In this document: one piece after another, positions 1 through 13,065 of the stretch
Layout of the letters: every line of letters begins with the position of its first letter
How positions within the stretch are numbered: the first letter of the stretch is position 1
Assembly (NCBI GenBank): GCA_964501565.1
Contig: CAZCUJ010000003.1
Span: 41,100 to 105,099 of the forward strand
Source of the DNA: an uncultured Methanospirillum sp.
GTDB taxonomy: Archaea; Halobacteriota; Methanomicrobia; Methanomicrobiales; Methanospirillaceae
Direction of reading: 5' to 3'
Length of the DNA: 64,000 bases
The notes under the pieces: generated by a model
Told to the model about the DNA's origin: nothing
Databases searched by the model: none
The model's input: the letters and a program-made list of their open reading frames with translations, nothing else
Program-made: the position numbers and the translations under genes

Positions 1-276
1 GGCGTTCCCAGGACCATGCTCGAGGCGATGGCCTGCGCCCGCCCGGTGGTGATCTCCGAGTTCGAGCACCTCCGCGAGCTGGTCGGCGGCGGCGGTCTGA
101 TGTTCCCGAAGGGGGACGTCTCCGCCCTGGCCGAGGCGATACGGGGTCTCCTCGAGCACCCCGATGCCGCCGACGAACTCGGGCGGCGCGCACGAGAGAC
201 GATCATCCGCCAGAACTCGTGGCGGAACACAGTCGATTCGACCCTTGAACTCTACCGCGACGTCGTGCCGGCCTGA
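1..276 (+). CDS. group-1 (GT-B, GT4-like) glycosyltransferase, C-terminal fragment; 5' end lies outside the window
   Basis: Frame 1 is open from base 1. 'LEAMACARPVVISEFEHLRELV' is the conserved C-terminal nucleotide-sugar-binding region of GT1/GT4 enzymes. The frame is GC3-rich. Confidence 0.75.
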   Translation, partial: GVPRTMLEAMACARPVVISEFEHLRELVGGGGLMFPKGDVSALAEAIRGLLEHPDAADELGRRARETIIRQNSWRNTVDSTLELYRDVVPA

Positions 277-335
277 CCCACGGGTCGGGCCTGGGTTCGT
301 CCTGGTCGGGGTCTTGCCCGGCGCGCCGCGCACCC

Positions 336-1463
336 TTGTCCGAGGGGCGTGATATCGTGGACCTCCTCGTCTGCGCCACAGAGTACTATCCCCACGGCTT
401 CGGGATCGCCAACGTCGCGCACAGCGTGGTCAGTGAGCTCGAGCAGCGGGGCGTCCGCTGCACGGTCTGCTCCCCGACGGGCCCCGACATCGTGAAGGGT
501 AGCCTGGGACTGGTCCGCCGCTTCGCAATCGGGGGGTTGATCGACTACTGGACCCGGGTGGCGAGGATGCCCGGCGTTGACCGGTACGACGCAATCTGGA
601 TGCACAACCCGCTCTTTCCTGGGCCATCGCCGTTCCCCCGCGCGGTGGCGACGGTCCACTCCACGTATCACAACAAGCTGTGCCAGGGCATGGCTCCACG
701 GTCCTACTTCCGCCTCGCCGCCGCCGTCGAGCGTCGCTCCCTCGTCGGGACGGCCCGATACGCGCGCTTCACCGCGGTCTCGGAGACCGTCGAGGCTGAC
801 CTGCGGTCCATCGGTATCGACGGGTCACAGATCGCGCAGATCCCCAACGGCGTCGATACTCGCCGCTTCTCGCCGGGCGAGGGTGGCGACGACCTCCGCC
901 ACGAGCTCGGCATCCCCGATGGGCACGTCGTCCTGCTCTACCTCGGGCGCATGTCCGGGGCGAAGCGGCCCGAGCGGCTGGTCGAGACCTTTGCCCAGCT
1001 CCACCGGCTCCGTCCCCTCACCACGCTCGTCATGGCCGGCGGCGGGGACCGGCTCGAGCCGGCCCACGCTCGCGCGCGCGACCTGGGTGTCGACGGGTCG
1101 GTCCGGTTCCTCGGCCCTGTCGCGCCAGACCGTGCCCCCGCGCTCTACCGTGTCGCCGACTGCTATGTGATGGCGAGCCGGAGCGAGGGAAGTCCCCTCG
1201 CGCTCCTCGAGGCGCTTTCATCCGGTTTGCCGGCAATCGTCTCGCCCATCCCCCCCCTCCGTTTCGTCGAGGACCAGGGCATGGGCCGCATCGCCGACTT
1301 CGAGCGCCCCGATTCAGCCGCGGCGACGATGGACGCGTTCCTCGAAACCGACCTGCGGAACGCTGGCGTACGCGCGCGCGCCTTCGTGACGGCGAACCAC
1401 GACTGGTCGGTGATCACGGACCGGTACGCCACCGAGTTCGAGCGGGCTGCGGGGTTCCCATGA
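336..1463 (+). CDS. group-1 (GT4-like) glycosyltransferase
   Basis: 375-aa ORF. 'LLYLGRMSGAKRPERLVE', 'ASRSEGSPLALLEALSSGLPAIVSPI' and 'YYPHGFGIANV' are typical of GT-B family 4. Start is TTG 336 or GTG 357. Its stop overlaps the next start (ATGA at 1460). Confidence 0.8.
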   Translation: MSEGRDIVDLLVCATEYYPHGFGIANVAHSVVSELEQRGVRCTVCSPTGPDIVKGSLGLVRRFAIGGLIDYWTRVARMPGVDRYDAIWMHNPLFPGPSPFPRAVATVHSTYHNKLCQGMAPRSYFRLAAAVERRSLVGTARYARFTAVSETVEADLRSIGIDGSQIAQIPNGVDTRRFSPGEGGDDLRHELGIPDGHVVLLYLGRMSGAKRPERLVETFAQLHRLRPLTTLVMAGGGDRLEPAHARARDLGVDGSVRFLGPVAPDRAPALYRVADCYVMASRSEGSPLALLEALSSGLPAIVSPIPPLRFVEDQGMGRIADFERPDSAAATMDAFLETDLRNAGVRARAFVTANHDWSVITDRYATEFERAAGFP

Positions 1464-2545
1464 AGGTCGCGCTCCTCACCCACAACGTCGACGGAGGCCT
1501 CGTCCAGTACGTCTCGCAGCTCGCGAACGCGCTCGCGCCGAAGGTCGACCTGGTCGTGATCGCTCCCGAGGGCCTGGACCCGTCCCGGTTTCCGTTCTCG
1601 CCTGACGTCAGGGTACGCCGCCTCCCGGTCGGGAACGTGGTCCGGACCTTCGTCGCCAACACCCTGCGCATCTGGCGACCGTTCCAGTTCATCGCCGCGA
1701 TCGGCGGGGAACGGCCTGACATTCTCCACTTCAACGGCGCCTCGCTCTGGTACGCCCTCCTCCTTCCCTTCCTCGCCCGCCGATACCCTGTCGTGGTCAC
1801 CATCCACGACGTGGCTCCCCATCCCGGGTCGAGAGAGTGGGACCAGGACCTCGCACGGCGCCTCTTTCTCAGGTATGCCGACGCGGTGATCGTCCATGGT
1901 GAGTGGGCCCGGGTCCGGCTCGGTGCTCCCCTGCCCACCTACGTGATACCGCACGGTGACTACTCGTTCTTCGTGTCCGGCGGCCCTGGTGACCCCGTCG
2001 AGGAGGAGGACGCCGTCCTCTTCTTCGGCCGCATCGAGCCGTATAAGGGACTGGAATACCTGCTCAGGGCCATGCCGACCGTCTGGGAAGAGTCGCCCTC
2101 GACCCGGCTTATCGTCGCGGGGAACGGCTCTCTCGAACCGTACGGGGATCTCCTCGGCGATGGCCGGATCGAGACCGTCAACCGGTTCATCGACGACGCC
2201 GAGGTCCCGGTGCTCTTCTCACGCGCGCGGCTCGTGGCCCTTCCCTACGTCGAGGGCACGCAGACGGGCGTCATCCCGATCGCGTACGCGTTCCGCAGAC
2301 CGGTCGTCGTCAGCGACGTCGGGTCCATCCCCGAGGTCGTCGAGGAGGGCCGGACAGGCTTCGTCGTCCCTCCGCGAGATCCTCCCGCCCTCGCGGGGGC
2401 AATCTTGAAGATACTGCAGAATGAACCATTGAGGATCACCATGGGTGCGGCCGCTTACGAGAAGATGACCCGCGAGCTCTCCTGGGGCCCGATCTCGGAC
2501 CGGACCATCGCCGCATACCGCGAGGTCATGGAGCTGGCCCGATGA
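1460..2545 (+). CDS. group-1 (GT4-like) glycosyltransferase
   Basis: 361 aa. 'FFGRIEPYKGLEYLL' and 'PYVEGTQTGVIPIAYAFRRPVVVSDVGSIPEVVEEGRTGFVV' are GT1 C-domain signatures. ATGA overlaps at both ends indicate an operon. Confidence 0.85.
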   Translation: MKVALLTHNVDGGLVQYVSQLANALAPKVDLVVIAPEGLDPSRFPFSPDVRVRRLPVGNVVRTFVANTLRIWRPFQFIAAIGGERPDILHFNGASLWYALLLPFLARRYPVVVTIHDVAPHPGSREWDQDLARRLFLRYADAVIVHGEWARVRLGAPLPTYVIPHGDYSFFVSGGPGDPVEEEDAVLFFGRIEPYKGLEYLLRAMPTVWEESPSTRLIVAGNGSLEPYGDLLGDGRIETVNRFIDDAEVPVLFSRARLVALPYVEGTQTGVIPIAYAFRRPVVVSDVGSIPEVVEEGRTGFVVPPRDPPALAGAILKILQNEPLRITMGAAAYEKMTRELSWGPISDRTIAAYREVMELAR

Positions 2546-4767
2546 GAATCCGCGACCCGTTCCGCCTCAACGACTGGGGCATTGTTCCGTTCCTCGCCGT
2601 TGTCCTCGGCATCCAGCTCCTCCTCTGGCTCACGCTCGTCCTCGAGGAGAACGGGGCTGGAGTGCCTCTCTTCCGGCAGGTCGTCGGTTTCGTATACCTG
2701 ACCTGGATACCCGGCATCATCCTGCTCCGCGTATTGCGCGTGCACAGGCTCGGGGGGATCGAGACGTTCCTCTTCTCGGTCGGTCTCTCGCTCTCGACCG
2801 TGATGTTCCTCGGGTTCGCGATCAACACGATCTACCCCATGCTGGACCTGTTGCGGCCGATCTCGGAGGGTCCCCTCATGATCACGCTCACGATCTTCGT
2901 CTTCGGAAGCGCCGTTGTCGCGTACCTCGTGGACCGCGACTTCAACGATCCCGAGTACCTCGAGGTGAGCGAGACCTTCGGCTGGCACGTCTTCCTCTTC
3001 GCCCTCCTCCCGCTCCTCGCCATCTTCGGATCCTGGCTGGTCAACAACTACCGGGTCAACACCATCCTCTTCGTGCTGCTCGCGGTGATCGCGATCGTGC
3101 CCGCCCTCGTCGCGTTCAGGCGGATCGTCCCCGAGCGATACTTCCCATTCGTCGTCTGGTCGGTCGCCCTCGCCCTGCTCCTCCACACCTCGTTGATCTC
3201 GAACCATATCTGGGGGTGGGACATCAACCAGGAGTTCTACATCGCGAACCTCGTAGTGCAGAACGGCGCCTGGGACTTCTCCATCTACTCGAACATCAAC
3301 GCGATGCTCTCGATCGTGATGCTCGCCCCGATCTACTCGCTGATCTGCAACGCCGATATCGTCTGGGTCTTCAAGATCGTATACCCGCTCCTCTTCTCCC
3401 TCGTGGCGCCGGGCCTGTACATGGTCGCTCGCCGGCAGTCGTATGACCGGATCGCGTTCTACAGCACGTTCTTCTTCATCACGTTCTACGTCTTCTTCAC
3501 CGAGATGCTCCAGGTCGCGAGGCAGGAGATCGCCGAGCTCTTTCTCGTGCTGATAGCGCTCCTGGTCATCAACAAGGACCTCAACAAAGTTAAAAAATAT
3601 CTCCTGCTGATCATCTTCTCCTTCTCTCTCGCGGTCTCGCACTACGGGCTGTCTTACCTGTTCATGATCACCCTCGTCCTAGCCTGGGTCATCCTCGTCG
3701 TCTCCGAGGTGGGGACGCTGAACCGGCTCCGCGATCGCGTCTCGTCCTTCTTCGCGTGGGACAAGCGCGGGTACGGCTCGAGCTTCCGGCCGCGCCACGC
3801 GGGAGAGCGGGCCATCACGCTCGACTATGTCCTGCTCTTCTTCATCTTCGCGCTCGGCTGGTACATGTTCATCTCCTCCTCGTCGGCACTGAACTCGTTC
3901 ACTGGTCTCGCCGTCCAGTTCTCGGACAGCCTCGTCTCGGGCTTCCTCGACCCCGAGACGAGCCAGGGGCTCTCAATCATCGTCACCAGGGCCGAGACCC
4001 TGCTCCACCAGGTCGGCAAGTACGTCCAGCTCGCAGCCCAGTTCTTCATATTCTTCGGCATCCTCTCGCTCCTCCTCAAGCCGCAGAAGATGGACCTGGG
4101 GGGCGAGTACTTCGCGATCGACCGCGAGTACTTCGCGATCTCGCTCGTCAACTTCGCCCTCGCGGCCGCGGGCGTTATCCTGCCGTTCTTCTCGAGCGCC
4201 CTCAACACGTCGCGGCTCTACCAGATGACCCTGATCTTCCTCGCACCGTTCTTCGTGATCGGGGTTCTCGAGGCGTTCCGGTTCCTGCGCCGGTTCCTGC
4301 GGAGCTCCGACCTCGACCTCTCGAGCGAGACGGCGACCCGCACCATCGCCGCGTTCCTCTGCGTATTCGTCCTCTTCAACACGGGATTCATCTACTCGGC
4401 ACTCGGCGACGACGCGACGTCGATCGCGCTCGACGACCGGATCGATTACCCGCGGTTCAACACACAGGAGATCGCGGGCGCCGAGTGGCTCCACGATGTC
4501 GGAAACCGGACGATCTATTCGGACACGCCCCGCGCGGTGGTGCTCGAAGGCTTTGTCGGGAAGATGGCGAGGAAGATCCCCGCGGACTCGCCACAGGTCC
4601 GCAGAAATGCCTACGTCTACCTGGGCACCTTCAACGTGCTGACGGAGAAGCTCTCGCTCACCCAGATCAACGAGGCCAGCAGCACCCGTGTCTATTCGGA
4701 TGTCGGGGCGTTCACGGTGAAACGAGGCACGATCTACGACAACGGCGGGTCCCGCGTCTACGCGTAA
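2542..4767 (+). CDS. large polytopic membrane protein (archaeal DUF2206-like); candidate GT-C / glycan polymerase-type enzyme
   Basis: 741 aa. The first ~600 residues contain many hydrophobic helices and the C-terminus is a soluble domain. It is translationally coupled to three glycosyltransferase genes. The family name is recalled from memory, not searched. Confidence 0.7.
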   Translation: MRIRDPFRLNDWGIVPFLAVVLGIQLLLWLTLVLEENGAGVPLFRQVVGFVYLTWIPGIILLRVLRVHRLGGIETFLFSVGLSLSTVMFLGFAINTIYPMLDLLRPISEGPLMITLTIFVFGSAVVAYLVDRDFNDPEYLEVSETFGWHVFLFALLPLLAIFGSWLVNNYRVNTILFVLLAVIAIVPALVAFRRIVPERYFPFVVWSVALALLLHTSLISNHIWGWDINQEFYIANLVVQNGAWDFSIYSNINAMLSIVMLAPIYSLICNADIVWVFKIVYPLLFSLVAPGLYMVARRQSYDRIAFYSTFFFITFYVFFTEMLQVARQEIAELFLVLIALLVINKDLNKVKKYLLLIIFSFSLAVSHYGLSYLFMITLVLAWVILVVSEVGTLNRLRDRVSSFFAWDKRGYGSSFRPRHAGERAITLDYVLLFFIFALGWYMFISSSSALNSFTGLAVQFSDSLVSGFLDPETSQGLSIIVTRAETLLHQVGKYVQLAAQFFIFFGILSLLLKPQKMDLGGEYFAIDREYFAISLVNFALAAAGVILPFFSSALNTSRLYQMTLIFLAPFFVIGVLEAFRFLRRFLRSSDLDLSSETATRTIAAFLCVFVLFNTGFIYSALGDDATSIALDDRIDYPRFNTQEIAGAEWLHDVGNRTIYSDTPRAVVLEGFVGKMARKIPADSPQVRRNAYVYLGTFNVLTEKLSLTQINEASSTRVYSDVGAFTVKRGTIYDNGGSRVYA

Positions 4768-4785: not shown

Positions 4786-5889
4786 TCAGATCCCGGCGGC
4801 CGGGTCGAGCTGGGCCTCGATCGACGCGCCGGCCGTCCCGATCGCCGCGAGCGCGCCAATGGTTCCGCGCCTCCCGTAGAGGGCTGCTCCGGTGGATGCA
4901 GCCACGCCCTGGGCCTCCTCTGGCGTGACAGTGCCTACCCGGGCACGGGCCGCGAACGCGCGCAGGGCGTCGGGGACCACGAAGCCCGTCCGTATCGCGA
5001 CACCCCACTCGGACGAGAAGGCCTCGTCCGAGACGAAGCGGACCGCGTGCTGCGCGACGGTCGACAGCGTGCCCCGCTCGACGGCGAGCTCGAGGTAACT
5101 GCAGGCGTTTCCAGCCGTTCGCGCGGCTATTCCGGGGTAAAGCATCACCACGCGGTGGCCGATGGGCTGTACCCCCTCGAGCTCCGCGAGGTGCTGGAGG
5201 AGGGCGAGCGCCAGGGCGAAGGTAGCGCCGCCTCCGGAAGTGTCCGTGTCGTCGATCCCCACGAGAAGATGGCTCAGGGCGCGGGTCACCACCTCCGCCC
5301 GCGTGAAGTCCCCCTCGTGCTCGAGCCGGACTTCGAGAACACCGTCCGCGTGGCCGATCATCTCCGAGAGCGAGTACGACGGGCCGCCGATCGACCGGAG
5401 CTCCTGGACCACGAGGTCGTCTTCGAGCCGGACCCCTTCGACGCCGACAGCAGGCAACGGGGGCAGCCCGACCTCGACCTGCTGACGGCCGACGCGAGCG
5501 GTCTCGCGGAGGAGATTGCCGTCCCGTTCGACCCGCTCGATCACGCCGCCGGCAGCCCGGTGATGGTGCATGCAGAAACCGGCGCAAGCCGACGAGAGGC
5601 ACTTGTGAAAGATCGCCACCTGGTCGCCATCAATGGTCGTGAAGACACGGCGGCAGGTCGAGCGAGGCATGGCGCTTATCGCGACGAACCGCGCGCCATG
5701 GCGTCCCCGGCTTCCAACCTGGCCGGCCACGCACCCTTCGGCCTCGAGGCGCTTGACCCAGTCCTGCACGGTCGAGCGCGGCAGCGCGAGCCCCGCCGCT
5801 ACCTCGGCGATGGTGAAGGAGCCGTGCTCGAGCGTGACCTGCCGCATCAGCGAGAGGAGTTGTCGGCGCCGCTCGAGCACGCGCGACAT
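4786..5889 (-). CDS. wHTH protein with Cys/His cluster and C-terminal TiaS-kinase-like (DUF1743-type) domain
   Basis: 367 aa. The N-terminus 'FTIAEVAAGLALPRSTVQDWVKRLEAEG' is a wHTH. 'HKCLSSACAGFCMHHH' is a Cys/His cluster. The C-half motifs 'VGIDDTDTSGG', 'VVMLYPGIAARTAGNA' and 'GRRGTIGALAAIG' resemble the N-terminal kinase domain of tRNA-agmatidine synthetase TiaS. Confidence 0.7.
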   Translation of the reverse strand: MSRVLERRRQLLSLMRQVTLEHGSFTIAEVAAGLALPRSTVQDWVKRLEAEGCVAGQVGSRGRHGARFVAISAMPRSTCRRVFTTIDGDQVAIFHKCLSSACAGFCMHHHRAAGGVIERVERDGNLLRETARVGRQQVEVGLPPLPAVGVEGVRLEDDLVVQELRSIGGPSYSLSEMIGHADGVLEVRLEHEGDFTRAEVVTRALSHLLVGIDDTDTSGGGATFALALALLQHLAELEGVQPIGHRVVMLYPGIAARTAGNACSYLELAVERGTLSTVAQHAVRFVSDEAFSSEWGVAIRTGFVVPDALRAFAARARVGTVTPEEAQGVAASTGAALYGRRGTIGALAAIGTAGASIEAQLDPAAGI

Positions 5890-5893
5890 CAGC

Positions 5894-6883
5894 TCACCAG
5901 CATCCGTCGTACTCGTTCCGGATCGCCAGCAGGTCGCCGATCACGGCTGACGCGGTCTCGACCGAACCGGCCCCCTTGCCCATCAGGGTGATCTCGCCGG
6001 CCATGTCCGTCGAGAGGGTGACCGCGTTAAGCGTCCCTTCGATCACGAGCGGGTGGGCCCGGGGCAGGACACGCGGCGCCACGCGGAGCAGGTTCCTGGC
6101 GGGCGCCACCTCACCGATCAGCCTGATGGTGCACCCCTGGTCGTCCGCGAGCCGGAGTGCATCGACGGTCAGGCCGTCGATCCCGGTGATCGCGACATCG
6201 TCGAGGGTCACTCCGAGCTGCCAGCATGTGTTCGCGAGGATCACGAGCTTGATGGCCGCGTCGATCCCGCGGACGTCGTAGGTCGGGTCGGCCTCGGCGT
6301 ACCCGAGCTCCCGTGCCTCGTCGAGGGCCTGCTCGTAGGTCAGGCCCTCGTCGTCCATCCTGGTGAGGATATAGTTGCAGGTGCCGTTCAGGATGCCTGT
6401 TATGGAGGAGAATGTGTTGCCCGCCAGGCCGCCGCGGAGCGCGTGGATCACGGGTATCGCACCGCCGACCGTCGCCTCGTACCGAAGCGCGGCGCCCGCG
6501 TCCCTGGCGAGCGCTTCGAGACCGGCGAGGTCGGCCGCTACCGGTCCCTTGTTCGAGGTGACCACGTGCTTGCCGAGTCCGAGGGCGCTCCGGATATGGG
6601 TCATTGCCGGCTCACCGTCCACCGCGTTGGTCGGCGTCAGCTCGACGAGCGCGTCGTATGCTCCCGAGTCGATCACGTCGGCCGCAGTGAGGCCGGATGT
6701 CCCGCACCGGCCAAGACCGCACTTCCGGTCCAGGACCACGGCGGGGTCAAGCCCGTCAGGGTCCACGAGGGCCGATGACGAATCGGCAACGGCCGTCAGC
6801 ACGAGGCCGAGCTCCGGTTTCGCGGCGAGCATCCGGAGGAGGCCGGTGCCGACGGCACCGAGTCCCAGGACAGCGATCCTCAT
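5894..6883 (-). CDS. hom: homoserine dehydrogenase
   Basis: 329 aa. It has an N-terminal Rossmann motif 'MRIAVLGLGAVGTG', plus 'VVTSNKGPVA', 'YEATVGGAIPVI' and 'GILNGTCNYILT', the canonical homoserine dehydrogenase motifs. Confidence 0.9.
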   Translation of the reverse strand: MRIAVLGLGAVGTGLLRMLAAKPELGLVLTAVADSSSALVDPDGLDPAVVLDRKCGLGRCGTSGLTAADVIDSGAYDALVELTPTNAVDGEPAMTHIRSALGLGKHVVTSNKGPVAADLAGLEALARDAGAALRYEATVGGAIPVIHALRGGLAGNTFSSITGILNGTCNYILTRMDDEGLTYEQALDEARELGYAEADPTYDVRGIDAAIKLVILANTCWQLGVTLDDVAITGIDGLTVDALRLADDQGCTIRLIGEVAPARNLLRVAPRVLPRAHPLVIEGTLNAVTLSTDMAGEITLMGKGAGSVETASAVIGDLLAIRNEYDGCW

Positions 6884-7395
6884 GCCTCTCCACCTCCCAG
6901 CGGCTCCACGATCAGCAATCCCTTCTCGGCCGCCACCTCCCTGAGGAGGGAGAGGGCATGCTCCATCTTGGAACGGGTCGTGGCCTTGATGGTGATCAGC
7001 GCGGTCGACGGCTCGACGATGGCGGGCATGTGGACGTTCAGCTCGGCCACCTCGGCGAAGCCGGTCGCGTCGATCCGGCCGATGGTGTCGCCGATGTCCG
7101 TGTGGATCAGGTGACCGATCATGATCACTGACTGGCGGTAGAGGAGACGCTCCTCGCCCAGCCGGAGGATATTGACCCCCTGCTCCTGGATCGCGGCGAC
7201 AAGCCCTTCGAGCCGTTCCTGCGGGATCTCGAGGACGATCTGGACCCCGAGCGTGTCGGACGAGGCCTCGGGGTCACGCTGGTGGATCACCGCGATGATG
7301 TTGCCGCCGTGCTCCGAGATCGGCGTCAGGGCCCCGACAAGCTGCCCGGGGCTGTCCTTTATCTCCAGTTTCATCGAGACCTGCAGACGGACCAC
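6880..7395 (-). CDS. ACT-domain (amino-acid-binding) protein, coupled to hom
   Basis: 171 aa. 'LEIKDSPGQLVGALTPISEHGGNIIAVIH' is an ACT-fold signature. Its stop overlaps the hom start (ATGA). Confidence 0.75.
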   Translation of the reverse strand: MVRLQVSMKLEIKDSPGQLVGALTPISEHGGNIIAVIHQRDPEASSDTLGVQIVLEIPQERLEGLVAAIQEQGVNILRLGEERLLYRQSVIMIGHLIHTDIGDTIGRIDATGFAEVAELNVHMPAIVEPSTALITIKATTRSKMEHALSLLREVAAEKGLLIVEPLGGGEA

Positions 7396-7468
7396 CTTCT
7401 CCTGGTACCTTTCACGAGGGTGAGGATAAGCCTTCTTTTTTAACGGCAGACCGGGGGAATTGCTGGTT

Positions 7469-7490: not shown

Positions 7491-7537
7491 TGCTCTTAAA
7501 GGCAGAGCCATTATTCCGGTGCATGGAGAGCTTTTAA

Positions 7538-8422
7538 ATCGCCGATCTCCGCTCCATCTATCCCAGGTCCAGTGCCCGGAATGTTTACGCCTCCGCCATG
7601 CGCGCGTTCCTCGACTCGGTCTGCGGGTCGCATCGCCAGTACACCGAGCGCCTCTCCCCCACCCCGGAGAATCAGGCTCGAGACGAAGACCTCGCTACCG
7701 GATAGCTCCCCAGTAGCAGGGACCACGCGGCCGATGTGATCTGCGCAATCGGCGGTTGGACCGTGGCGCCCAAGACCGTGCACCTCCGGGTTGCCGCAGC
7801 GCTGGTGTCCCTGCCACACCACGGGATCGACCCCCTCTCTAACCAGGACCGCCGGCGCATCCGATCGAAGCTGCCTCGCGGCGGGGCCGTGACCCGGCGT
7901 GGCGAACCGACACCGGAGAAGCGGTGGACCGTCGCCGACCACCCCAACGAGCGAGCCAAGGTGCTCGTCCTGATCCTCGCTTCGCCGGGGATACGGATCG
8001 GGGAGGCCGTGAAGGTCCGGGTCAGCGACCTCGACCCCGGCGCGTCACCGGCAGTGAGCGAGATCCGGGCCGTGAATGAGAGTATCGACCTTCGCCGATC
8101 CCGGCCCCCCGATACGTTCCAGGCCATCCGGGAACCGCCCAACCACTGGCTCGCTGCGGCCCTCTGGCGCCTCGACAGGCACGGCGCCGGTTTATTTGCC
8201 CGGCACGCGGCGATCTGGATCACGGCCAGTGACACGCGCTGGGTGAGCTCTGGATCCCTCCTCTCCGGAGAGACACTAGAGCCGCACGCCAGCGAGGACG
8301 ATGCAGCCCGGGTCATGGTGGCGCTCGATCTGGACGGCGTGGACATCACGTCGAGGCCGATACGGGCAGATGCGCGCGGAATCCTGGCCGGGGGGGTATC
8401 CAGACCAGTAGGCCTGGCTTGA
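7538..8422 (+). pseudogene. tyrosine recombinase / phage-type integrase, decayed
   Basis: A single frame reads an N-terminal core-binding-like segment 'SARNVYASAMRAFLDSV'. It then hits an in-frame TAG (7703-7705). After that comes the catalytic-domain box I 'LILASPGIRIGEAVKVRVSDLD' and 'ARHAA'. No ATG/GTG opens the frame after the TAA at 7535-7537, and there is no Tyr nucleophile anywhere in the C-terminal region. Confidence 0.55.
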
Positions 8423-8615
8423 GGCCAGGCGGTGACCCGGCCCCGTCCTTCACGACTTCGATCGAACCCCATCCCCGGGTCCACCATCATTCGTAGCCCG
8501 TGACGATTGCCATCTGGGTGCCAGGGCAGTTTGGAACACTTCCGTCATTCTGACTTTCATGAACAATCACCGATGCGGTGCCGCCGTCGGGGCAGTGGCG
8601 GCGGCCCATCGGGTT

Positions 8616-8661
8616 CTCGACGTCAAGGCATATGAGGCGTGAAGATCACGGTGTGAAAGTG
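8616..8661. repeat. direct repeat DR1 (core 46 bp)
   Basis: CTCGACGTCAAGGCATATGAGGCGTGAAGATCACGGTGTGAAAGTG matches 13430-13475 at 41 of 46 positions. Similarity extends upstream (GGCGGCGG at 8597) and downstream (a second GATCACGG). Confidence 0.75.
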
Positions 8662-8728
8662 CTGGTTTCATGGATCACGGGCATACTATTCAGAGAGGCG
8701 ACTGGCGTTGATAGTGGAGCTGGAGGAG

Positions 8729-8863
8729 ATGAGGATGCAGGCAACAAAGATAAGTTCGGCGATGGTGCACGCGGCCAGGGATCTCGAGAGTGGGCCGGAG
8801 AAGGCCCGGGCCCTGGTCGCCCGGTCGATGAAGCAGCCCGGATGGGGGGACTGGCGCCCATGA
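8729..8863 (+). CDS. hypothetical mini-protein (44 aa)
   Basis: The ATG is preceded by GGAGCTGGAGGAG. The ORF 'MRMQATKISSAMVHAARDLESGPEKARALVARSMKQPGWGDWRP' ends in an ATGA overlap with the next ORF. It is too short for the supplied ORF track. Confidence 0.3.
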   Translation: MRMQATKISSAMVHAARDLESGPEKARALVARSMKQPGWGDWRP

Positions 8864-9066
8864 CGTACACCCTCGTATCCCCGGCGGCCCTGGAGAAGGC
8901 GATCGATCGCATGGCGGAGGAGCTCGGGGTCTCCCGCGGTGCGCTCCTCGAGGCGCTCACGCCGGTGGTAATCGGGTGGGCCATTGCCCGGATCTCAGAA
9001 GACCTCGGGGTCACGCCGCGAGAGGCCCGGACCAGGATCGCCCGAGCGATAGATCGGACGGCATGA
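8860..9066 (+). CDS. small ribbon-helix-helix (CopG/Arc-like) DNA-binding protein
   Basis: 68 aa. 'YTLVSPAALEKAIDRMAEELGVSRGALLEAL' fits the beta-strand/helix/helix RHH pattern. There are ATGA overlaps on both sides. Confidence 0.45.
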   Translation: MTYTLVSPAALEKAIDRMAEELGVSRGALLEALTPVVIGWAIARISEDLGVTPREARTRIARAIDRTA

Positions 9067-9248
9067 CCGTGCTCAGCCGACCGAATTACCTGCCATTTTC
9101 TTCCGTTCTCGAGGGTCCGCTCGACCAGATCGAAGGCCAAATCGATACTATTACTGGAAAATATCCGGGTTCCACTCCTGTTCTGGCACTCGCCCGCTGT
9201 AACGACCAACACGATTTTACTTCACCACCGACGATCAGGATCGTATGA
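9063..9248 (+). CDS. hypothetical protein (61 aa)
   Basis: The ATG overlaps the preceding stop (ATGA). Composition is markedly AT-richer than the surrounding genome. No recognisable motif. Confidence 0.35.
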   Translation: MTVLSRPNYLPFSSVLEGPLDQIEGQIDTITGKYPGSTPVLALARCNDQHDFTSPPTIRIV

Positions 9249-9285
9249 TCGCCGTTACGATCGCCCGGTCCCCGGAGAGGCGCTG

Positions 9286-9492
9286 ATGCCGCGGCAATGG
9301 GACGGGAAGAGTCCCCGGATCTGTCCCCTCTGTGGCCGAACATTCACGGACGGCGGGTTCGTAATCCCGACCGACCCGGAGTACGGCGATTCCTTCACCT
9401 ATTGCCGGACGTGCCACGATGCCGACGAGGCCGCATGCCGTGCCGATGCCGCCTGCCGGGGCGATACCAACCGGCGCAGGATGGGGGGATGA
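9286..9492 (+). CDS. zinc-ribbon protein (68 aa)
   Basis: 'CPLCGRTF...YCRTCH' is a C4 zinc-ribbon arrangement. The ATG is preceded by GGAGAGG. Confidence 0.5.
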   Translation: MPRQWDGKSPRICPLCGRTFTDGGFVIPTDPEYGDSFTYCRTCHDADEAACRADAACRGDTNRRRMGG

Positions 9493-9632
9493 CACCGCCC
9501 CGAACGCCCGACCGCCGTCCTGTCCGTGCGCCGCGCGGAGCAGGAGTTGAGGCCGTGCCGGGTCCGATGCGGGGGGCTTTGAGCGCCGATGACAGGGCAG
9601 GGCTGATCGACCTGCTCCGCCGGAGCGAGTGA
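9489..9632 (+). CDS. hypothetical mini-protein (47 aa)
   Basis: ATGA overlap with the zinc-ribbon ORF stop. The R/P-rich composition makes it doubtful. Confidence 0.2.
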   Translation: MTPPRTPDRRPVRAPRGAGVEAVPGPMRGALSADDRAGLIDLLRRSE

Positions 9633-9965
9633 TCGGGGCAGGTCTCGAGGATCGTCCCTCGAACCAGCATCATCACGGCGGGCGGTACGCGATGCCCGGG
9701 GAGGACGCGCGATGAACCCCGACCTGGGGCGGGGAGCTCCCGCCGATAAAAACAGAGATCGACAGCGCGGTATTCTGCCGGTTCCGGCTCGACATCGAGT
9801 GGCGCCGATGCACCGGGTCCTCAGTCCGGCGGCAGAGTGCACCATGCAGACGGAACGAACTCGATACCACTGTGCCGCCGCCAAACACTTGATGCATCTC
9901 GGCGACCGGGAGAACGCGAATCGAGTTTTGATTGAGGCCACTCCGCAGCGCAGTCGAGGAGCATA

Positions 9966-10331
9966 ATGGGCATCTGGATCGGCGACCTGCTCAGGTGTTA
10001 CGACGGAACCTCCTACGAGGTCGGCGCCTTTCTCGATTGCGGCGAGTCTCGCGAAGGGGGCGGAACCCTGTACACCGTCTGTCTTCTGCCGATGCTCGGC
10101 GACCCCACCAATCCCGAGGACTGGATCACCGTCCCGCTGATCGTGGCCGGCGATGTGGTCCTCTGTCCGTACCACTGGCGGAGCAATCCGAACGCGTACC
10201 GGCTCGACATTTCCGAATATCGATGGGTGGAGATGGCGACCCGGACGGCGTGCGTGATGATCGACGGATGGCCGTATCTGCCGCCCGGGCCAGGCGGTCC
10301 GGACGAGCGGCCGGGCTCTGTGAACGACTGA
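9966..10331 (+). CDS. hypothetical protein (121 aa)
   Basis: Unbiased, protein-like composition ('GIWIGDLLRCYDGTSYEVGAFLDCGE...'). The start overlaps an upstream short ORF stop (TAATG). No family recognised. Confidence 0.5.
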   Translation: MGIWIGDLLRCYDGTSYEVGAFLDCGESREGGGTLYTVCLLPMLGDPTNPEDWITVPLIVAGDVVLCPYHWRSNPNAYRLDISEYRWVEMATRTACVMIDGWPYLPPGPGGPDERPGSVND

Positions 10332-10341
10332 CGGAAGGACG

Positions 10342-10629
10342 GTGCTGTCCTGCCCACGAACACGAACGACGACGGGCTGGGTCGAGCGCAAGAGATGTTC
10401 ATTGCGGATCGACGGTGGACGAGGCGATACTCTCATCATCTCCAGCGGCACCTGTCGCCCCATACGTCCCTGTCATTGTAAGGATTGCAGGGGGGTCTCG
10501 ATCTCCTTGGCGCCACTCGCCGCCCTGGCGGGGACGGGTAGCTTCCCCACCGGGACAGACGATTCTACCATGCCGATCTGGCCCGGGTTCTTCGCGTGGT
10601 CGGATCGACCTGTGGGGCGGACCGCATGA
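10342..10629 (+). CDS. hypothetical protein (95 aa), doubtful
   Basis: GTG start preceded by GGAAGGA. The stop overlaps the next start (ATGA at 10626). The Cys/Arg/Thr-rich composition is ambiguous. Confidence 0.3.
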   Translation: MLSCPRTRTTTGWVERKRCSLRIDGGRGDTLIISSGTCRPIRPCHCKDCRGVSISLAPLAALAGTGSFPTGTDDSTMPIWPGFFAWSDRPVGRTA

Positions 10630-10952
10630 CCGCCGACCAGGGCGGCGAGGAGATCGACGAGCGGATCCGCGCGATCATGGTCGAGGGGGTCGCGGACCGG
10701 TTTTTCATGCTGTCTGGCCGCGCAGAGTGCATTCGCAACGGCTCCTCGCGAACCATCTCGTGCACCAGGGACCTCGAGATGTTCACCGCAGTGCTCGATG
10801 CACTCGCGGCTGATCTCGGTCAGCCCCACGCAGATCCCGTGCGCCGCATGACCGAGGATCTCGAGGCGCGGGCCGCCCTGGATCGATCGGCGCTCGTCCA
10901 CCTCTACCAGATGGAAGAGGCAGACCGGCCCGGCGGAAGACCAGAGCCATGA
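10626..10952 (+). CDS. hypothetical protein (108 aa)
   Basis: 'MTADQGGEEIDERIRAIMVEGVADRFFMLSGRAECIRNG...' has a helical, protein-like composition. It is the last member of the plus-strand mini-ORF chain and is convergent with the PolB gene. Confidence 0.45.
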   Translation: MTADQGGEEIDERIRAIMVEGVADRFFMLSGRAECIRNGSSRTISCTRDLEMFTAVLDALAADLGQPHADPVRRMTEDLEARAALDRSALVHLYQMEEADRPGGRPEP

Positions 10953-11007
10953 ATCGGCCGGCGCGACCAGAACCATCAGCCACCCGGGCCCGAGGTTCGC
11001 CCCAGGA

Positions 11008-12984: not shown

Positions 12985-13065
12985 GGTCAGCGCCCTCCGT
13001 CTGCTGCGCGCGGTTCCCGCCGGTCTCCCGGCGCCGTCCTCCCGGTTCCGCGCGTCGTCCCGGGG

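What the first reader, a model, noticed from the sequence alone, without database searches (positions are those of the whole stretch)
4786..5889. Winged-HTH protein fused to a TiaS-kinase-like domain
The C-terminal ~180 residues carry 'VGIDDTDTSGG', 'VVMLYPGIAARTAGNA', 'WGVAIRTGFVVPD' and 'GRRGTIGALAAIG'. In order and spacing these resemble the N-terminal ATP-utilising kinase domain of archaeal tRNA(Ile2) agmatidine synthetase TiaS (GIDDTDS..., ...RLNPNIP.KTRGN..., ...KGRG.IGALAA.G); I recall that sequence from memory.

Here the domain is not followed by the ferredoxin-like, OB and zinc-ribbon tRNA-binding modules of TiaS. Instead it is preceded by a wHTH ('FTIAEVAAGLALPRSTVQDWVKRLEAEG') and a Cys/His cluster ('HKCLSSACAGFCMHHH').

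An unusual nucleotide-phosphorylating domain attached to a DNA-binding module suggests a ligand- or ATP-dependent regulator, or a nucleic-acid-modifying enzyme of unknown specificity. It lies immediately downstream of the hom/ACT pair on the same strand.
Basis: partly seen in the sequence, partly recalled or inferred. Interest (0 to 1): 0.6.

Follow-up and report, generated by a model that had tools for sequence, protein, structure and literature searches.

The report
HTH-fused paralogue of methanogenesis marker 11
This gene encodes a DNA-binding-type domain fused to a relative of the uncharacterised "methanogenesis marker protein 11", which is built on the unusual kinase domain of the tRNA enzyme TiaS; it is an ordinary member of a catalogued but functionally untested family that always follows the homoserine dehydrogenase gene in one order of methanogens.

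Summary
ORF 4786-5889 (minus strand, 367 aa) has an N-terminal winged HTH, a Cys/His cluster and a C-terminal TiaS-type kinase domain (TCKD). The TCKD passes Pfam's threshold and superposes on TiaS structures. TiaS's Mg/ATP aspartates and its autophosphorylated threonine are conserved.

The protein is therefore wHTH plus a divergent full Mmp11 body. It is neither TiaS nor canonical Mmp11.

It belongs to a separate paralogous clade:
- 455 database homologues, and relatives in 325 species genomes.
- Listed in 2009 as a signature cluster exclusive to Methanomicrobiales.
- Coexists with canonical Mmp11 and TiaS in related genomes.

In 80 of 80 informative loci it directly follows ACT-hom, usually overlapping hom by 17 nt.

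My best reading, which is inferred, is an enzyme-derived, ATP-using, possibly autophosphorylating and metal- or thiol-sensing one-component regulator. Canonical Mmp11 genes recur beside coenzyme B-type genes. This suggests, speculatively, that the ligand is related to coenzyme B or threonine.

It is a new member of a known but uncharacterised kind, of moderate interest.

The parts
4786..5889 (-). Whole gene: HTH-fused Mmp11 paralogue, 367 aa plus stop
   Evidence: ORF list. 455 full-length homologues at 50-99% identity. AlphaFold pLDDT 91, pTM 0.79. Covered by metatranscriptome contigs of a roughly 97% identical relative.
5674..5889 (-). Winged helix-turn-helix, residues 1-72 (long N-terminal helix, HTH 27-50, beta wing 54-70)
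   Evidence: Sub-threshold Pfam hits to HTH_28, TrmB, HTH_29, IclR and MarR_2. Model secondary structure. Foldseek hits to wHTH domains of ROK and MarR repressors, E 6e-4 to 1e-2. The recognition-helix motif P37-R-S-T-x-x-D43-W44-x-x-R47 is invariant even in the deepest family branches.
5272..5664 (-). Mmp11-type N-domain, residues 76-206: two tandem beta-beta-alpha-beta-beta repeats
   Evidence: Aligned to TIGR03280 profile positions 4 to about 140. Separate model has pLDDT 94.6. No significant PDB fold match, best E 0.04.
5560..5655 (-). Cys/His cluster: C79, H95, C97, C102, C106, H109, H110 (probable metal or redox site)
   Evidence: In 128 HTH-type sequences: C79 100%, H95 99%, C97 100%, S99 100%, C106 100%, C102 83%, H109 94%, H110 95%. 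Canonical Mmp11 has Y/F, E (93%), no Cys and W at the same columns. C79/H95/C97/C106 are invariant in all deep branches. They lie on a beta hairpin and the following helix.
4834..5271 (-). TiaS-type kinase domain (TCKD), residues 207-352
   Evidence: PF22641 above gathering score. PDB sequence hits. Foldseek 3u02/3amt/4rvz/5xob E 1e-8 to 4e-7.
5218..5259 (-). Catalytic motif G211-I-D213-D214-T215-D216 ... G221-A-T223-F
   Evidence: The ungapped HMMER alignment to 3amt puts D213/D214/D216 on TiaS Asp8/Asp9/Asp11 and T223 on TiaS Thr18 (chain numbering is native +20). These residues are 99-100% conserved in HTH-type, canonical Mmp11 and TiaS groups.
5894..6883 (-). Homoserine dehydrogenase (hom), 329 aa; its stop lies 4 nt before the target's ATG
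   Evidence: Pfam Homoserine_dh and NAD_binding_3. Sequence. hom lies directly upstream in 80 of 80 informative Methanomicrobiales loci, overlapping by 17 nt in 60.
6880..7395 (-). ACT-domain protein, first gene of the operon (alternative start ATG 7374)
   Evidence: Pfam ACT. ACT_10 in relatives. The ACT stop and hom start overlap by 4 or 1 nt in 70 of 76 loci.
7425..7446 (-). Conserved promoter-region element TTAAAAAAGAAGGCTTATC (core AAGGCTTATC at 7425-7434): core promoter and/or candidate operator
   Evidence: Core 10-mer (up to 1 mismatch) found upstream of ACT in 61 of 72 loci, at near 2 bits per position. Only chance-level matches elsewhere in 750 kb of loci and in the window. RNA contigs do not extend upstream of it.

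Best explanation
SHOWN. The gene encodes a three-part protein.
- Part 1 is a MarR/TrmB-like winged HTH.
- Part 2 is the N-terminal domain of the methanogenesis-marker-11 (Mmp11) family. Here it has acquired an invariant Cys3His site: C79, H95, C97 and C106, plus C102, H109 and H110 in Methanomicrobiales.
- Part 3 is a TiaS-type kinase domain that keeps every residue shared by TiaS and Mmp11: the DDTD Mg/ATP motif, Thr223 (equivalent to TiaS Thr18), [K/R]-T-x-G-N and G-x-x-G-A-L-A-A.

It is a member of a distinct, old paralogous clade of the Mmp11 family. That clade is found throughout Methanomicrobiales and in a few other mcr-bearing archaea. In related genomes it coexists with canonical Mmp11 and with TiaS. 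In Methanomicrobiales it is always the last, translationally coupled gene of an ACT-hom-X operon.

INFERRED. It works as an enzyme-derived one-component regulator, analogous to archaeal RbkR or the ROK repressors.
- The wHTH binds DNA. A candidate target is the strongly conserved AAGGCTTATC box in its own operon's promoter.
- The Mmp11-like body binds ATP and a small ligand, and probably hydrolyses ATP and autophosphorylates Thr223.
- The Cys3His site holds a metal (Zn or Fe-S), or reports thiol/redox state.
- Together these would set DNA affinity and so tune homoserine/threonine supply.
For: Architecture and homology.

Catalytic residues and the Cys3His site are conserved across 128 family members. 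The deepest branches agree.

Separate clade from canonical Mmp11 and TiaS: tree.

Coexistence of paralogues:
- Anderson 2009 Table S1 lists three separate COG1571 clusters per Methanomicrobiales genome.
- MAG JAYEIC01 carries the HTH type (L043) and also two HTH-less Mmp11 genes (L090). One of those scores 325 bits against TIGR03280, above its cutoff.

Operon:
- hom is adjacent in 80 of 80 informative loci, with a 17-nt overlap in 60.
- RNA-seq contigs of a 97% identical relative run continuously over ACT-hom-X and stop at the promoter.

A conserved promoter box specific to this operon.

The wHTH recognition helix is nearly invariant across phyla, which fits a conserved nucleic-acid target.

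A precedent for kinase-wHTH regulators appears in the Foldseek list: RbkR 5trd and the ROK repressors 5f7q/4ija.
Against: - No DNA-binding, ATPase or phosphorylation data exist for any family member. Literature searches found none.
- All Pfam HTH hits are below gathering thresholds.
- The conserved box is not palindromic and may simply be a well-conserved BRE/TATA core promoter.
- Outside Methanomicrobiales the gene is not next to hom. In Nezhaarchaeales it sits after marker 14, beside mtr, so the hom link could be lineage-specific synteny.
- Full retention of catalytic residues fits a working enzyme as well as a sensor.
- wHTH-kinase fusions such as Rio2 use the wHTH for RNA, not DNA.
- Metal binding is inferred from conservation and topology only; I had no model coordinates.
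Confidence: 0.5

Rival explanations
1. It is primarily an enzyme, not a transcription factor. In this reading it is an ATP-dependent kinase or ligase of the Mmp11 type acting on a small molecule, RNA or DNA. The wHTH would serve for substrate (nucleic acid) binding or dimerisation, much as Rio2 kinase uses its wHTH on rRNA and TiaS uses extra domains on tRNA.
For: All TCKD catalytic residues are 99-100% conserved, which is unusual for a pure sensor. Its relatives (canonical Mmp11) sit in biosynthetic operons and look like enzymes. Rio2 (wHTH + kinase) appears among the structural neighbours.
Against: No tRNA-binding OB or Zn-ribbon is present. The wHTH is of the MarR/TrmB/ROK repressor type. 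Canonical Mmp11 enzymes are already present in the same genomes, so a second enzyme would need a separate substrate. Its position as last gene of an amino-acid biosynthetic operon with an ACT regulator is typical of regulators.
Confidence: 0.25
2. It is a catalytically silent, nucleotide- or metabolite-binding pseudo-enzyme regulator. It would bind ATP or a ligand without hydrolysis or autophosphorylation, and the Cys3His site would be purely structural zinc.
For: Several TiaS residues differ. TiaS Arg (100%) at column 249 is Met in 93% of the family. The Lys of K-T-R-G-N is Arg here and Cys or Pro in some members. Many enzyme-derived repressors are inactive.
Against: DDTD, Thr223, T258, G260, N261 and the G-x-x-G motif are invariant over a clade that spans phyla. 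That argues for selection on chemistry, not only binding.
Confidence: 0.15
3. It is a non-orthologous kinase of the threonine branch (a homoserine or threonine kinase) recruited to the hom operon, and the HTH is incidental.
For: A kinase-fold gene is translationally coupled to hom in every Methanomicrobiales locus. 'Homoserine kinase' does not appear among the universal methanogen clusters of Anderson 2009 Table S1.
Against: The family is not hom-linked in other lineages. The conserved wHTH and Cys3His site have no role in such an enzyme. TCKD chemistry is known only for carbonyl-O and protein-Thr phosphorylation.
Confidence: 0.07

Closest known systems
Methanogenesis marker protein 11 (NCBIfam TIGR03280; MJ0921, MMP1593, MTH1391; IMG name 'methanogenesis imperfect marker protein 11'; function unknown)
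   Same: Residues 81-355 align with profile positions 4-285 of 292. Both have the two-repeat N-domain followed by a TCKD, the shared motif G-[IV]-D-D-T-D-x4-G-A-T-[WF], and the same C-terminal G-x-x-G-A-[LV]-A-A.
   Different: - Score of 128 bits against a cutoff of 255.8.
- About 25-34% identity.
- An extra 75-residue wHTH.
- A Cys3His site where canonical proteins have E, W and no Cys.
- K-T-x-G-N (like TiaS) instead of K-T-x-N-C.
- A separate clade in the tree.
- A different gene context: ACT-hom rather than aconitase/HCS/TPP/radical-SAM/Mmp4 neighbours.
TiaS, tRNA(Ile2) 2-agmatinylcytidine synthetase (NF040849; PDB 3amt, 3amu, 4rvz, 5xob) and the P. furiosus TiaS-like protein 3u02
   Same: The TCKD fold (Foldseek E 1e-8 to 4e-7, 22-30% identity). 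The Asp8/Asp9/Asp11 and Thr18 equivalents are conserved.
   Different: The TCKD is C-terminal rather than N-terminal. There is no FLD, OB or Zn-ribbon. NF040849 scores 44 bits against a cutoff of 600. Related genomes carry a separate genuine TiaS.
Enzyme-derived archaeal/bacterial one-component regulators: RbkR (riboflavin kinase + wHTH, PDB 5trd) and ROK-family repressors (5f7q, 4ija)
   Same: An N-terminal wHTH is fused to a kinase-type ligand/ATP-binding body. They appear among the structural neighbours through the wHTH. In these systems regulation is by the enzyme's own ligand.
   Different: The kinase folds are unrelated. No DNA binding or ligand has been shown for the present family.
Rio2 atypical protein kinase (wHTH + kinase; PDB 1zao, 1tqi)
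   Same: An archaeal wHTH-kinase fusion that autophosphorylates. It is a weak structural neighbour.
   Different: Rio2 has a eukaryotic-like protein kinase fold. Its wHTH contacts rRNA in ribosome biogenesis (my own knowledge). It has no Mmp11 N-domain.

Membership tests
TiaS (tRNA(Ile2) agmatidine synthetase, NF040849) | TCKD kinase domain with the DDTD Mg/ATP motif and the Thr18 autophosphorylation site | tested here: met
   PF22641 scores 32.5 bits, above the gathering score of 27. The alignment to 3amt places D213/D214/D216/T223 on Asp8/9/11/Thr18. Foldseek E is 1e-7.
TiaS (tRNA(Ile2) agmatidine synthetase, NF040849) | C-terminal ferredoxin-like, OB and zinc-ribbon tRNA-binding domains; full-length model score at or above the cutoff | tested here: not met
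   The protein ends 15 residues after the TCKD. NF040849 scores 44 bits against a cutoff of 600, and only profile positions 3-152 of 422 are matched.
Methanogenesis marker protein 11 (TIGR03280) | End-to-end match to the family profile (N-domain + TCKD) | tested here: met
   Residues 81-355 match profile positions 4-285 of 292, E 3.3e-37.
Methanogenesis marker protein 11 (TIGR03280) | Score at or above the curated cutoff (equivalog membership) | tested here: not met
   128.2 bits against 255.8. Other HTH-type members score 118-156 bits, while canonical members score 289-444. The HTH type forms a separate clade.
HTH-fused Mmp11 paralogue (Methanomicrobiales-exclusive COG1571 signature cluster of Anderson et al. 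2009: Mhun_2291, Mlab_0480, Memar_0972, Mboo_1355) | wHTH + Mmp11 body, about 367-390 aa, collinear full-length similarity | tested here: met
   50-99% identity over 95-100% of its length to 120 listed homologues. It lies within the starred Methanomicrobiales subclade.
HTH-fused Mmp11 paralogue (Methanomicrobiales-exclusive COG1571 signature cluster of Anderson et al. 2009: Mhun_2291, Mlab_0480, Memar_0972, Mboo_1355) | Invariant C79 / H95-x-C97-x-S99 / C106 site | tested here: met
   All are present in the window protein and 99-100% conserved in 128 sequences.
HTH-fused Mmp11 paralogue (Methanomicrobiales-exclusive COG1571 signature cluster of Anderson et al. 2009: Mhun_2291, Mlab_0480, Memar_0972, Mboo_1355) | Last gene of the ACT-hom-X operon | tested here: met
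   In the window there is a 4-nt gap after hom. The arrangement holds in 80 of 80 informative loci. The 2009 locus tags are consecutive with hom.
MarR/TrmB-type winged-HTH transcription factors | wHTH fold | tested here: inconclusive
   Pfam HTH_28 scores 23.8 (gathering score 25), TrmB 22.4 (25.6) and MarR_2 19.1 (27); all are just below threshold. The model shows a helix-turn-helix plus a beta wing, and Foldseek hits MarR/ROK wHTH domains at E 6e-4 to 1e-2.
MarR/TrmB-type winged-HTH transcription factors | Sequence-specific DNA binding and ligand-dependent regulation | not testable with these tools
   There is only a candidate site: the conserved AAGGCTTATC box upstream of ACT.

The most novel reading that the evidence does not exclude
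The Mmp11 family supplies the long-missing ATP-dependent late steps of coenzyme B synthesis: joining 7-mercaptoheptanoate to threonine through a phosphorylated carboxylate, and/or phosphorylating the threonine hydroxyl. This would be the same two chemistries that the TiaS kinase domain performs on C34 and on its own Thr18.

The HTH-fused paralogue described here would be the matching sensor-regulator. It would bind the same thiol cofactor or its precursors through its Mmp11-like body and Cys3His site, use ATP (autophosphorylation of Thr223), and couple threonine supply from the ACT-hom operon to coenzyme B demand. That would make it a first identified regulator of methanogenic thiol-cofactor homeostasis.
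Probability: 0.12. Interest if true: 0.8.

Novelty: new member of a known kind. Interest (0 to 1): 0.4.

Why it matters
The TCKD is a rare kinase fold with only one characterised function, agmatidine formation on tRNA. Mmp11 is one of the few methanogen-signature proteins that still has no function.

The HTH-fused clade shows that this fold has been recruited into what looks like a regulator in a whole order of environmentally dominant methanogens (digesters, peat, sediments).

If the regulator reading holds, it offers a handle on how these organisms control aspartate-family and possibly cofactor metabolism. A 2024 study states that the sensor and transcription factor controlling coenzyme B synthesis are unknown (PMC11619418).

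For this particular window, however, the gene is a typical family member with nothing unusual beyond the family itself.

Tried and rejected
Only the 64-kb window could be scanned, and it holds no second TCKD gene.

2. Literature searches for 'methanogenesis marker protein 11', TIGR03280, 'imperfect marker', MJ0921, MMP1593, MA1981 and similar terms found no functional study.

3. The PF08489 'TiaS_FLD' hits in canonical Mmp11 overlap the TCKD region. They come from the legacy DUF1743 model and are not an extra domain.

4. The hypothesis that the HTH type is the only Mmp11 of Methanomicrobiales (orthologous replacement) is rejected. Canonical copies coexist with it.

5. The fold search with the middle domain alone gave no significant PDB match.

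6. The diverse alignment A3 was too variable for the search for related loci, so I used the Methanomicrobiales-only alignment A4.

7. The second box-like match in the window (36985, 1 mismatch) is at chance level. A one-mismatch box in L090, about 400 nt upstream of ftr, lies in AT-rich DNA. I did not count it as support for a shared regulon.

8. The check for a missing homoserine kinase using the 2009 table was inconclusive.

9. The RNA contig ends at 7338 and 7380 differ between runs, so they do not define a transcription start.
Full report
**1. The observation**

It starts 4 nt after the stop codon of a homoserine dehydrogenase gene (5894-6883). That gene in turn overlaps an ACT-domain gene (6880-7395) on the same strand.

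Profile searches confirm the recalled TiaS similarity:
- Pfam TiaS_TCKD (PF22641) scores 32.5 bits, above its gathering score of 27.
- NCBIfam's TiaS model matches only its first 152 positions, at 44 bits against a cutoff of 600.
- phmmer against PDB sequences finds the P. furiosus TiaS-like protein 3u02 (E 2.3e-9) and A. fulgidus TiaS 3amt/4rvz (E about 1e-4) over residues 207-352.

An AlphaFold2 model built on 78 homologues has mean pLDDT 91. Foldseek places its C-terminal domain on 3u02, 3amt, 4rvz and 5xob at E 1e-8 to 4e-7, with rmsd about 2.9 A over about 150 columns.

The ungapped alignment to 3amt (chain numbering is native +20) puts D213, D214 and D216 on TiaS Asp8, Asp9 and Asp11. 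It puts T223 on Thr18. From my own knowledge of Terasaka et al. and Osawa et al. 2011, Thr18 is the residue that TiaS autophosphorylates. [quoted passage not shown]

**2.

The best NCBIfam hit is not TiaS. It is TIGR03280, methanogenesis marker protein 11 (Mmp11), aligned end to end: residues 81-355 against profile positions 4-285 of 292, E 3e-37. The score of 128 bits is below the curated cutoff of 255.8.

So the segment between the HTH and the TCKD is the N-terminal domain of Mmp11. Modelled alone it has pLDDT 94.6 and consists of two tandem beta-beta-alpha-beta-beta repeats. It has no significant match in the PDB, best E 0.04.

The protein is therefore wHTH (1-72) + Mmp11 N-domain (76-206) + TCKD (207-352).

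**3. The family**

A search of 5.8 billion proteins gives 455 homologues. The 120 listed are 353-393 aa long (one is a 278-aa fragment), 51-99% identical and collinear. Almost all come from Methanomicrobiales: Methanoculleus, Methanofollis, Methanosphaerula, Methanoregula, Methanolinea and Methanospirillum. Sources name them 'helix-turn-helix domain-containing protein', 'sugar-specific transcriptional regulator TrmB', 'MarR family', 'TiaS-like TCKD domain-containing protein' or 'methanogenesis imperfect marker protein 11'.

An exhaustive HMMER search of 1.84 billion cluster representatives, using residues 81-367, finds three tiers:
- nine full-length HTH-type clusters;
- about fifty HTH-less Mmp11 clusters of 300-335 aa;
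- TiaS or TiaS-like proteins that match only the TCKD.

HTH-type representatives score 118-156 bits on TIGR03280. Four of the seven HTH-less representatives tested score 289-444 bits. The other three (P0144, P0152, P0168; group B) score 200-210 bits, also below the cutoff.

One deep HTH-type branch comes from Candidatus Nezhaarchaeales.

A maximum-likelihood tree separates TiaS (support 100) from all Mmp11-like proteins. Within those it resolves canonical group A, a second HTH-less group B, and the HTH type. The HTH type is compatible with a single origin. The window protein lies in a fully supported Methanomicrobiales subclade.

**4. It is a third paralogue, not the order's only Mmp11**

Table S1 of Anderson et al. 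2009 (PMC2686161) lists three separate COG1571 clusters:
- A Methanomicrobiales-exclusive signature cluster: Mhun_2291, Mlab_0480, Memar_0972 and Mboo_1355. These locus tags are consecutive with hom (Mhun_2292, Mlab_0481, Memar_0971, Mboo_1354).
- A cluster common to all methanogens that contains MJ0921 and MMP1593, which is canonical Mmp11. It has one or two copies in Methanomicrobiales (Memar_0629/0630, Mboo_0594/0595).
- TiaS proper (MJ1095, Memar_2348 and others).

I confirmed coexistence directly. MAG assembly GCA_034659935.1 (JAYEIC01) carries the HTH type on contig 17 (L043). It carries two adjacent HTH-less genes on contig 20 (L090). One of these passes the TIGR03280 cutoff at 325 bits.

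The window itself holds only this one TCKD gene.

**5. Conserved residues**

I aligned 128 HTH-type, 30 canonical, 5 TiaS and 14 short TiaS-like sequences.

The TCKD core is conserved in every group:
- D213, D214, T215, D216, T223, T258, G342 and G345 are 99-100% conserved in the HTH-type, canonical Mmp11 and TiaS groups. In the 14 short TiaS-like sequences T258 is Thr or Ser and the two glycines are 92%.
- Position 257 is basic: R 59% and K 32% in the HTH type, K 100% in TiaS.
- G260-N261 are invariant in the HTH type, as in TiaS. Canonical Mmp11 has N-C there.

The HTH type alone has the following, where canonical Mmp11 has Y/F, Glu (93%), no Cys and Trp:

| Residue | Conservation in HTH type |
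|---|---|
| C79 | 100% |
| H95 | 99% |
| C97 | 100% |
| S99 | 100% |
| C102 | 83% |
| C106 | 100% |
| H109 | 94% |
| H110 | 95% |

C79, H95, C97 and C106 remain invariant in the deepest branches.

In the models, C79 and C97 lie at the two ends of one beta hairpin. C102, C106, H109 and H110 lie on one face of the following helix. A Cys3His metal or redox site is therefore likely. This is inference from topology, because I had no coordinates to measure.

The recognition helix of the wHTH (P37-R-S-T-x-x-D43-W44-x-x-R47) is also nearly invariant across the whole clade.

**6. Genomic context**

A scan of one genome per GTDB species found 325 genomes that encode a relative. The best 80 loci are all Methanomicrobiales, apart from obviously mis-binned contigs.
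- hom lies immediately upstream on the same strand in 80 of the 82 loci examined. The other two lack upstream sequence.
- The hom stop and the X start overlap by 17 nt in 60 loci and by 29 nt in 3. They are within 10 nt of each other in the remaining 17.
- The ACT stop and the hom start overlap by 4 or 1 nt in 70 of 76 loci.

Outside the order the neighbours differ. In Nezhaarchaeales the gene overlaps the end of methanogenesis marker 14 (600 bits) and lies next to the mtr operon. In two other lineages there is no consistent partner.

Metatranscriptome assemblies (runs X26 and X27) contain single contigs of a roughly 97% identical relative. They cover ACT-hom-X continuously and end at 7338 and 7380, with no coverage upstream of about 7428. 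This fits expression as one transcript from a promoter just upstream of ACT. Contigs are a weak measure, though, and the ends differ between runs.

**7. A conserved promoter element**

The 150 nt upstream of ACT are otherwise unalignable among the loci. They share one near-invariant element, consensus gTAaAAGGCTTATCtT, 37-41 nt before the estimated start.

The 10-mer AAGGCTTATC, allowing up to one mismatch, occurs there in 61 of 72 loci. Elsewhere in about 750 kb of loci, and in the 64-kb window, it occurs only at chance level.

It may be a very well conserved BRE/TATA core promoter, an operator, or both. It is not palindromic. I treat it as a candidate target of the wHTH, not as evidence.

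**8. How it most likely works**

Shown: the architecture, the conserved catalytic and Cys/His residues, paralogy with Mmp11 and TiaS, operon membership, and probable expression.

Inferred: the function. A repressor-type wHTH is fused to a kinase-type body, and the gene is the last in an amino-acid biosynthetic operon headed by an ACT protein. The combination resembles enzyme-derived one-component regulators such as RbkR (PDB 5trd) and the ROK repressors, which appear among the structural neighbours of the wHTH.

I therefore favour an ATP-using regulator, at about 0.5. Its DNA affinity would be set by ligand binding and/or Thr223 autophosphorylation in the TCKD, and by the state of the Cys3His site.

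Rivals:
- A genuine enzyme whose wHTH binds a nucleic-acid substrate, as in Rio2 (0.25).
- A catalytically silent ligand sensor (0.15).
- A recruited homoserine or threonine kinase (0.07).

**9. Clues from canonical Mmp11**

An unbiased neighbour analysis used 84 HTH-less Mmp11 genes, falling into 18 clades at 65% identity, from 80 metagenome loci plus six others. The most recurrent same-strand neighbours are:
- aconitase large subunit (5 clades) and small subunit (4 clades);
- a three-domain TPP enzyme (4 clades);
- a homocitrate/isopropylmalate-synthase-like protein (4 clades);
- a protein directly downstream of Mmp11 that clusters with a variant radical-SAM protein (4 clades);
- a GMC oxidoreductase (3 clades).

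Seven of the 18 clades have at least one aconitase, HCS-like or TPP neighbour.

In the Methanomicrobiales MAG the operon is Mmp11B - Mmp11A - radical SAM - short TPP enzyme - HCS-like - aconitase L - aconitase S, all with overlapping or abutting ends. Group B genes sit next to marker 4 (MtxX) in two lineages.

These neighbours belong to the 2-oxoacid elongation type used for coenzyme B, though leucine-pathway paralogues cannot be excluded. From my own knowledge, the enzymes for the last steps of coenzyme B synthesis have not been identified. Those steps are an ATP-dependent coupling of 7-mercaptoheptanoate to threonine, followed by phosphorylation. TiaS chemistry would suit both: phosphorylation of a carbonyl oxygen followed by amine attack, and phosphorylation of a Thr hydroxyl.

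Threonine comes from homoserine. A speculative link therefore follows: the HTH-type paralogue could sense a coenzyme B-related ligand and tune hom. A 2024 study states that the sensor and transcription factor for coenzyme B synthesis are unknown (PMC11619418). I give this reading about 0.12.

**10. Earlier notes of this scan**

After I had reached these readings, a look-up showed that other agents had described the same HTH-fused family in other genomes (e1-2639173, e1-4136896). Others had proposed the Mmp11/TPP/radical-SAM/Mmp4 link to coenzyme B (e1-2459815, e1-2611049, e1-2771953). These are unchecked AI notes and not independent evidence. My own tests are the hom synteny and the neighbour statistics, and they agree with those notes.

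**11. Verdict**

- Observation: confirmed.
- Interpretation: partly supported.
- The gene is a typical member of a catalogued family that was recognised as a Methanomicrobiales signature in 2009 and still has no assigned function. It is a new member of a known kind.
- Interest is moderate (0.4). The family is a good experimental target, but this instance adds nothing unusual to it.

Noticed in passing
window 7425-7446 (minus strand): A near-invariant element, TAAAAGGCTTATC (core AAGGCTTATC), lies about 30-40 nt upstream of the ACT gene start. It is conserved in 61 of 72 Methanomicrobiales loci, while the surrounding sequence is unalignable. It is absent elsewhere beyond chance. It could be a core promoter, an operator, or both.
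   Followed up: partly
window 7372-7395 (minus strand): The start of the ACT gene is ambiguous. GTG at 7395 gives 171 aa and ATG at 7374 gives 164 aa. Relatives are 162-167 aa. RNA-seq contigs of a close relative end at 7380 and 7338.
   Followed up: partly
L090:6001-12789 (MAG JAYEIC01, Methanomicrobiales): A tight operon with overlapping or abutting gene ends: Mmp11 group B - canonical Mmp11 - radical SAM (LipS2/BioB-like, sub-threshold) - short IorA-like TPP enzyme - homocitrate/isopropylmalate-synthase-like - aconitase large - aconitase small. It lies next to ftr and a divergent hdrACB cluster. These are candidate late coenzyme B genes.
   Followed up: partly
L091:2624-8146; L092:3036-4869; L093:5126-6948: In Ca. 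Methanosuratincola, Mmp11 sits in the order aconitase L - aconitase S - ALS-like TPP enzyme - Mmp11 - GMC oxidoreductase. In two other lineages, group B Mmp11 abuts methanogenesis marker 4 (MtxX, phosphotransacetylase fold).
   Followed up: partly
L007:4563-9459 (Ca. Nezhaarchaeales): A deep-branching HTH-type homologue overlaps the end of methanogenesis marker 14 (TIGR03285, 600 bits). It follows mtrH, precedes a class-III aminotransferase and faces the mtrEDCBAFG operon. It has no hom linkage.
   Followed up: no
window 76-206 of the protein (5272-5664): The Mmp11 N-domain is confidently modelled (pLDDT 94.6) as two beta-beta-alpha-beta-beta repeats. It has no significant structural match in the PDB (best Foldseek E 0.04). 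The second repeat carries a conserved Gly-rich loop (I-G-G-P-x-Y-S) at the position where the first repeat carries the Cys/His site.
   Followed up: partly
window 1-4767: A cluster of three GT4 glycosyltransferase genes (1-276 cut by the window end, 336-1463, 1460-2545) and a 741-aa DUF2206 membrane protein lies convergent to the target gene. The same cluster follows the gene in Methanosphaerula palustris (L001) but not in Methanoculleus (L003).
   Followed up: no
window 7500-13000: Upstream of the ACT promoter the window differs from its relatives, which have a CbiA/CobQ-like gene there in Methanosphaerula. It carries several ORFs without Pfam hits and a 658-aa family B DNA polymerase with only a partial Pfam match. 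This may be an inserted element.
   Followed up: no
L085; proteins P0112, P0128, P0145: Contigs or proteins of this archaeal family are labelled as Bacteroidota, Deferrimicrobium or Syntrophus in public MAGs. These are probably binning errors from methanogenic consortia.
   Followed up: no
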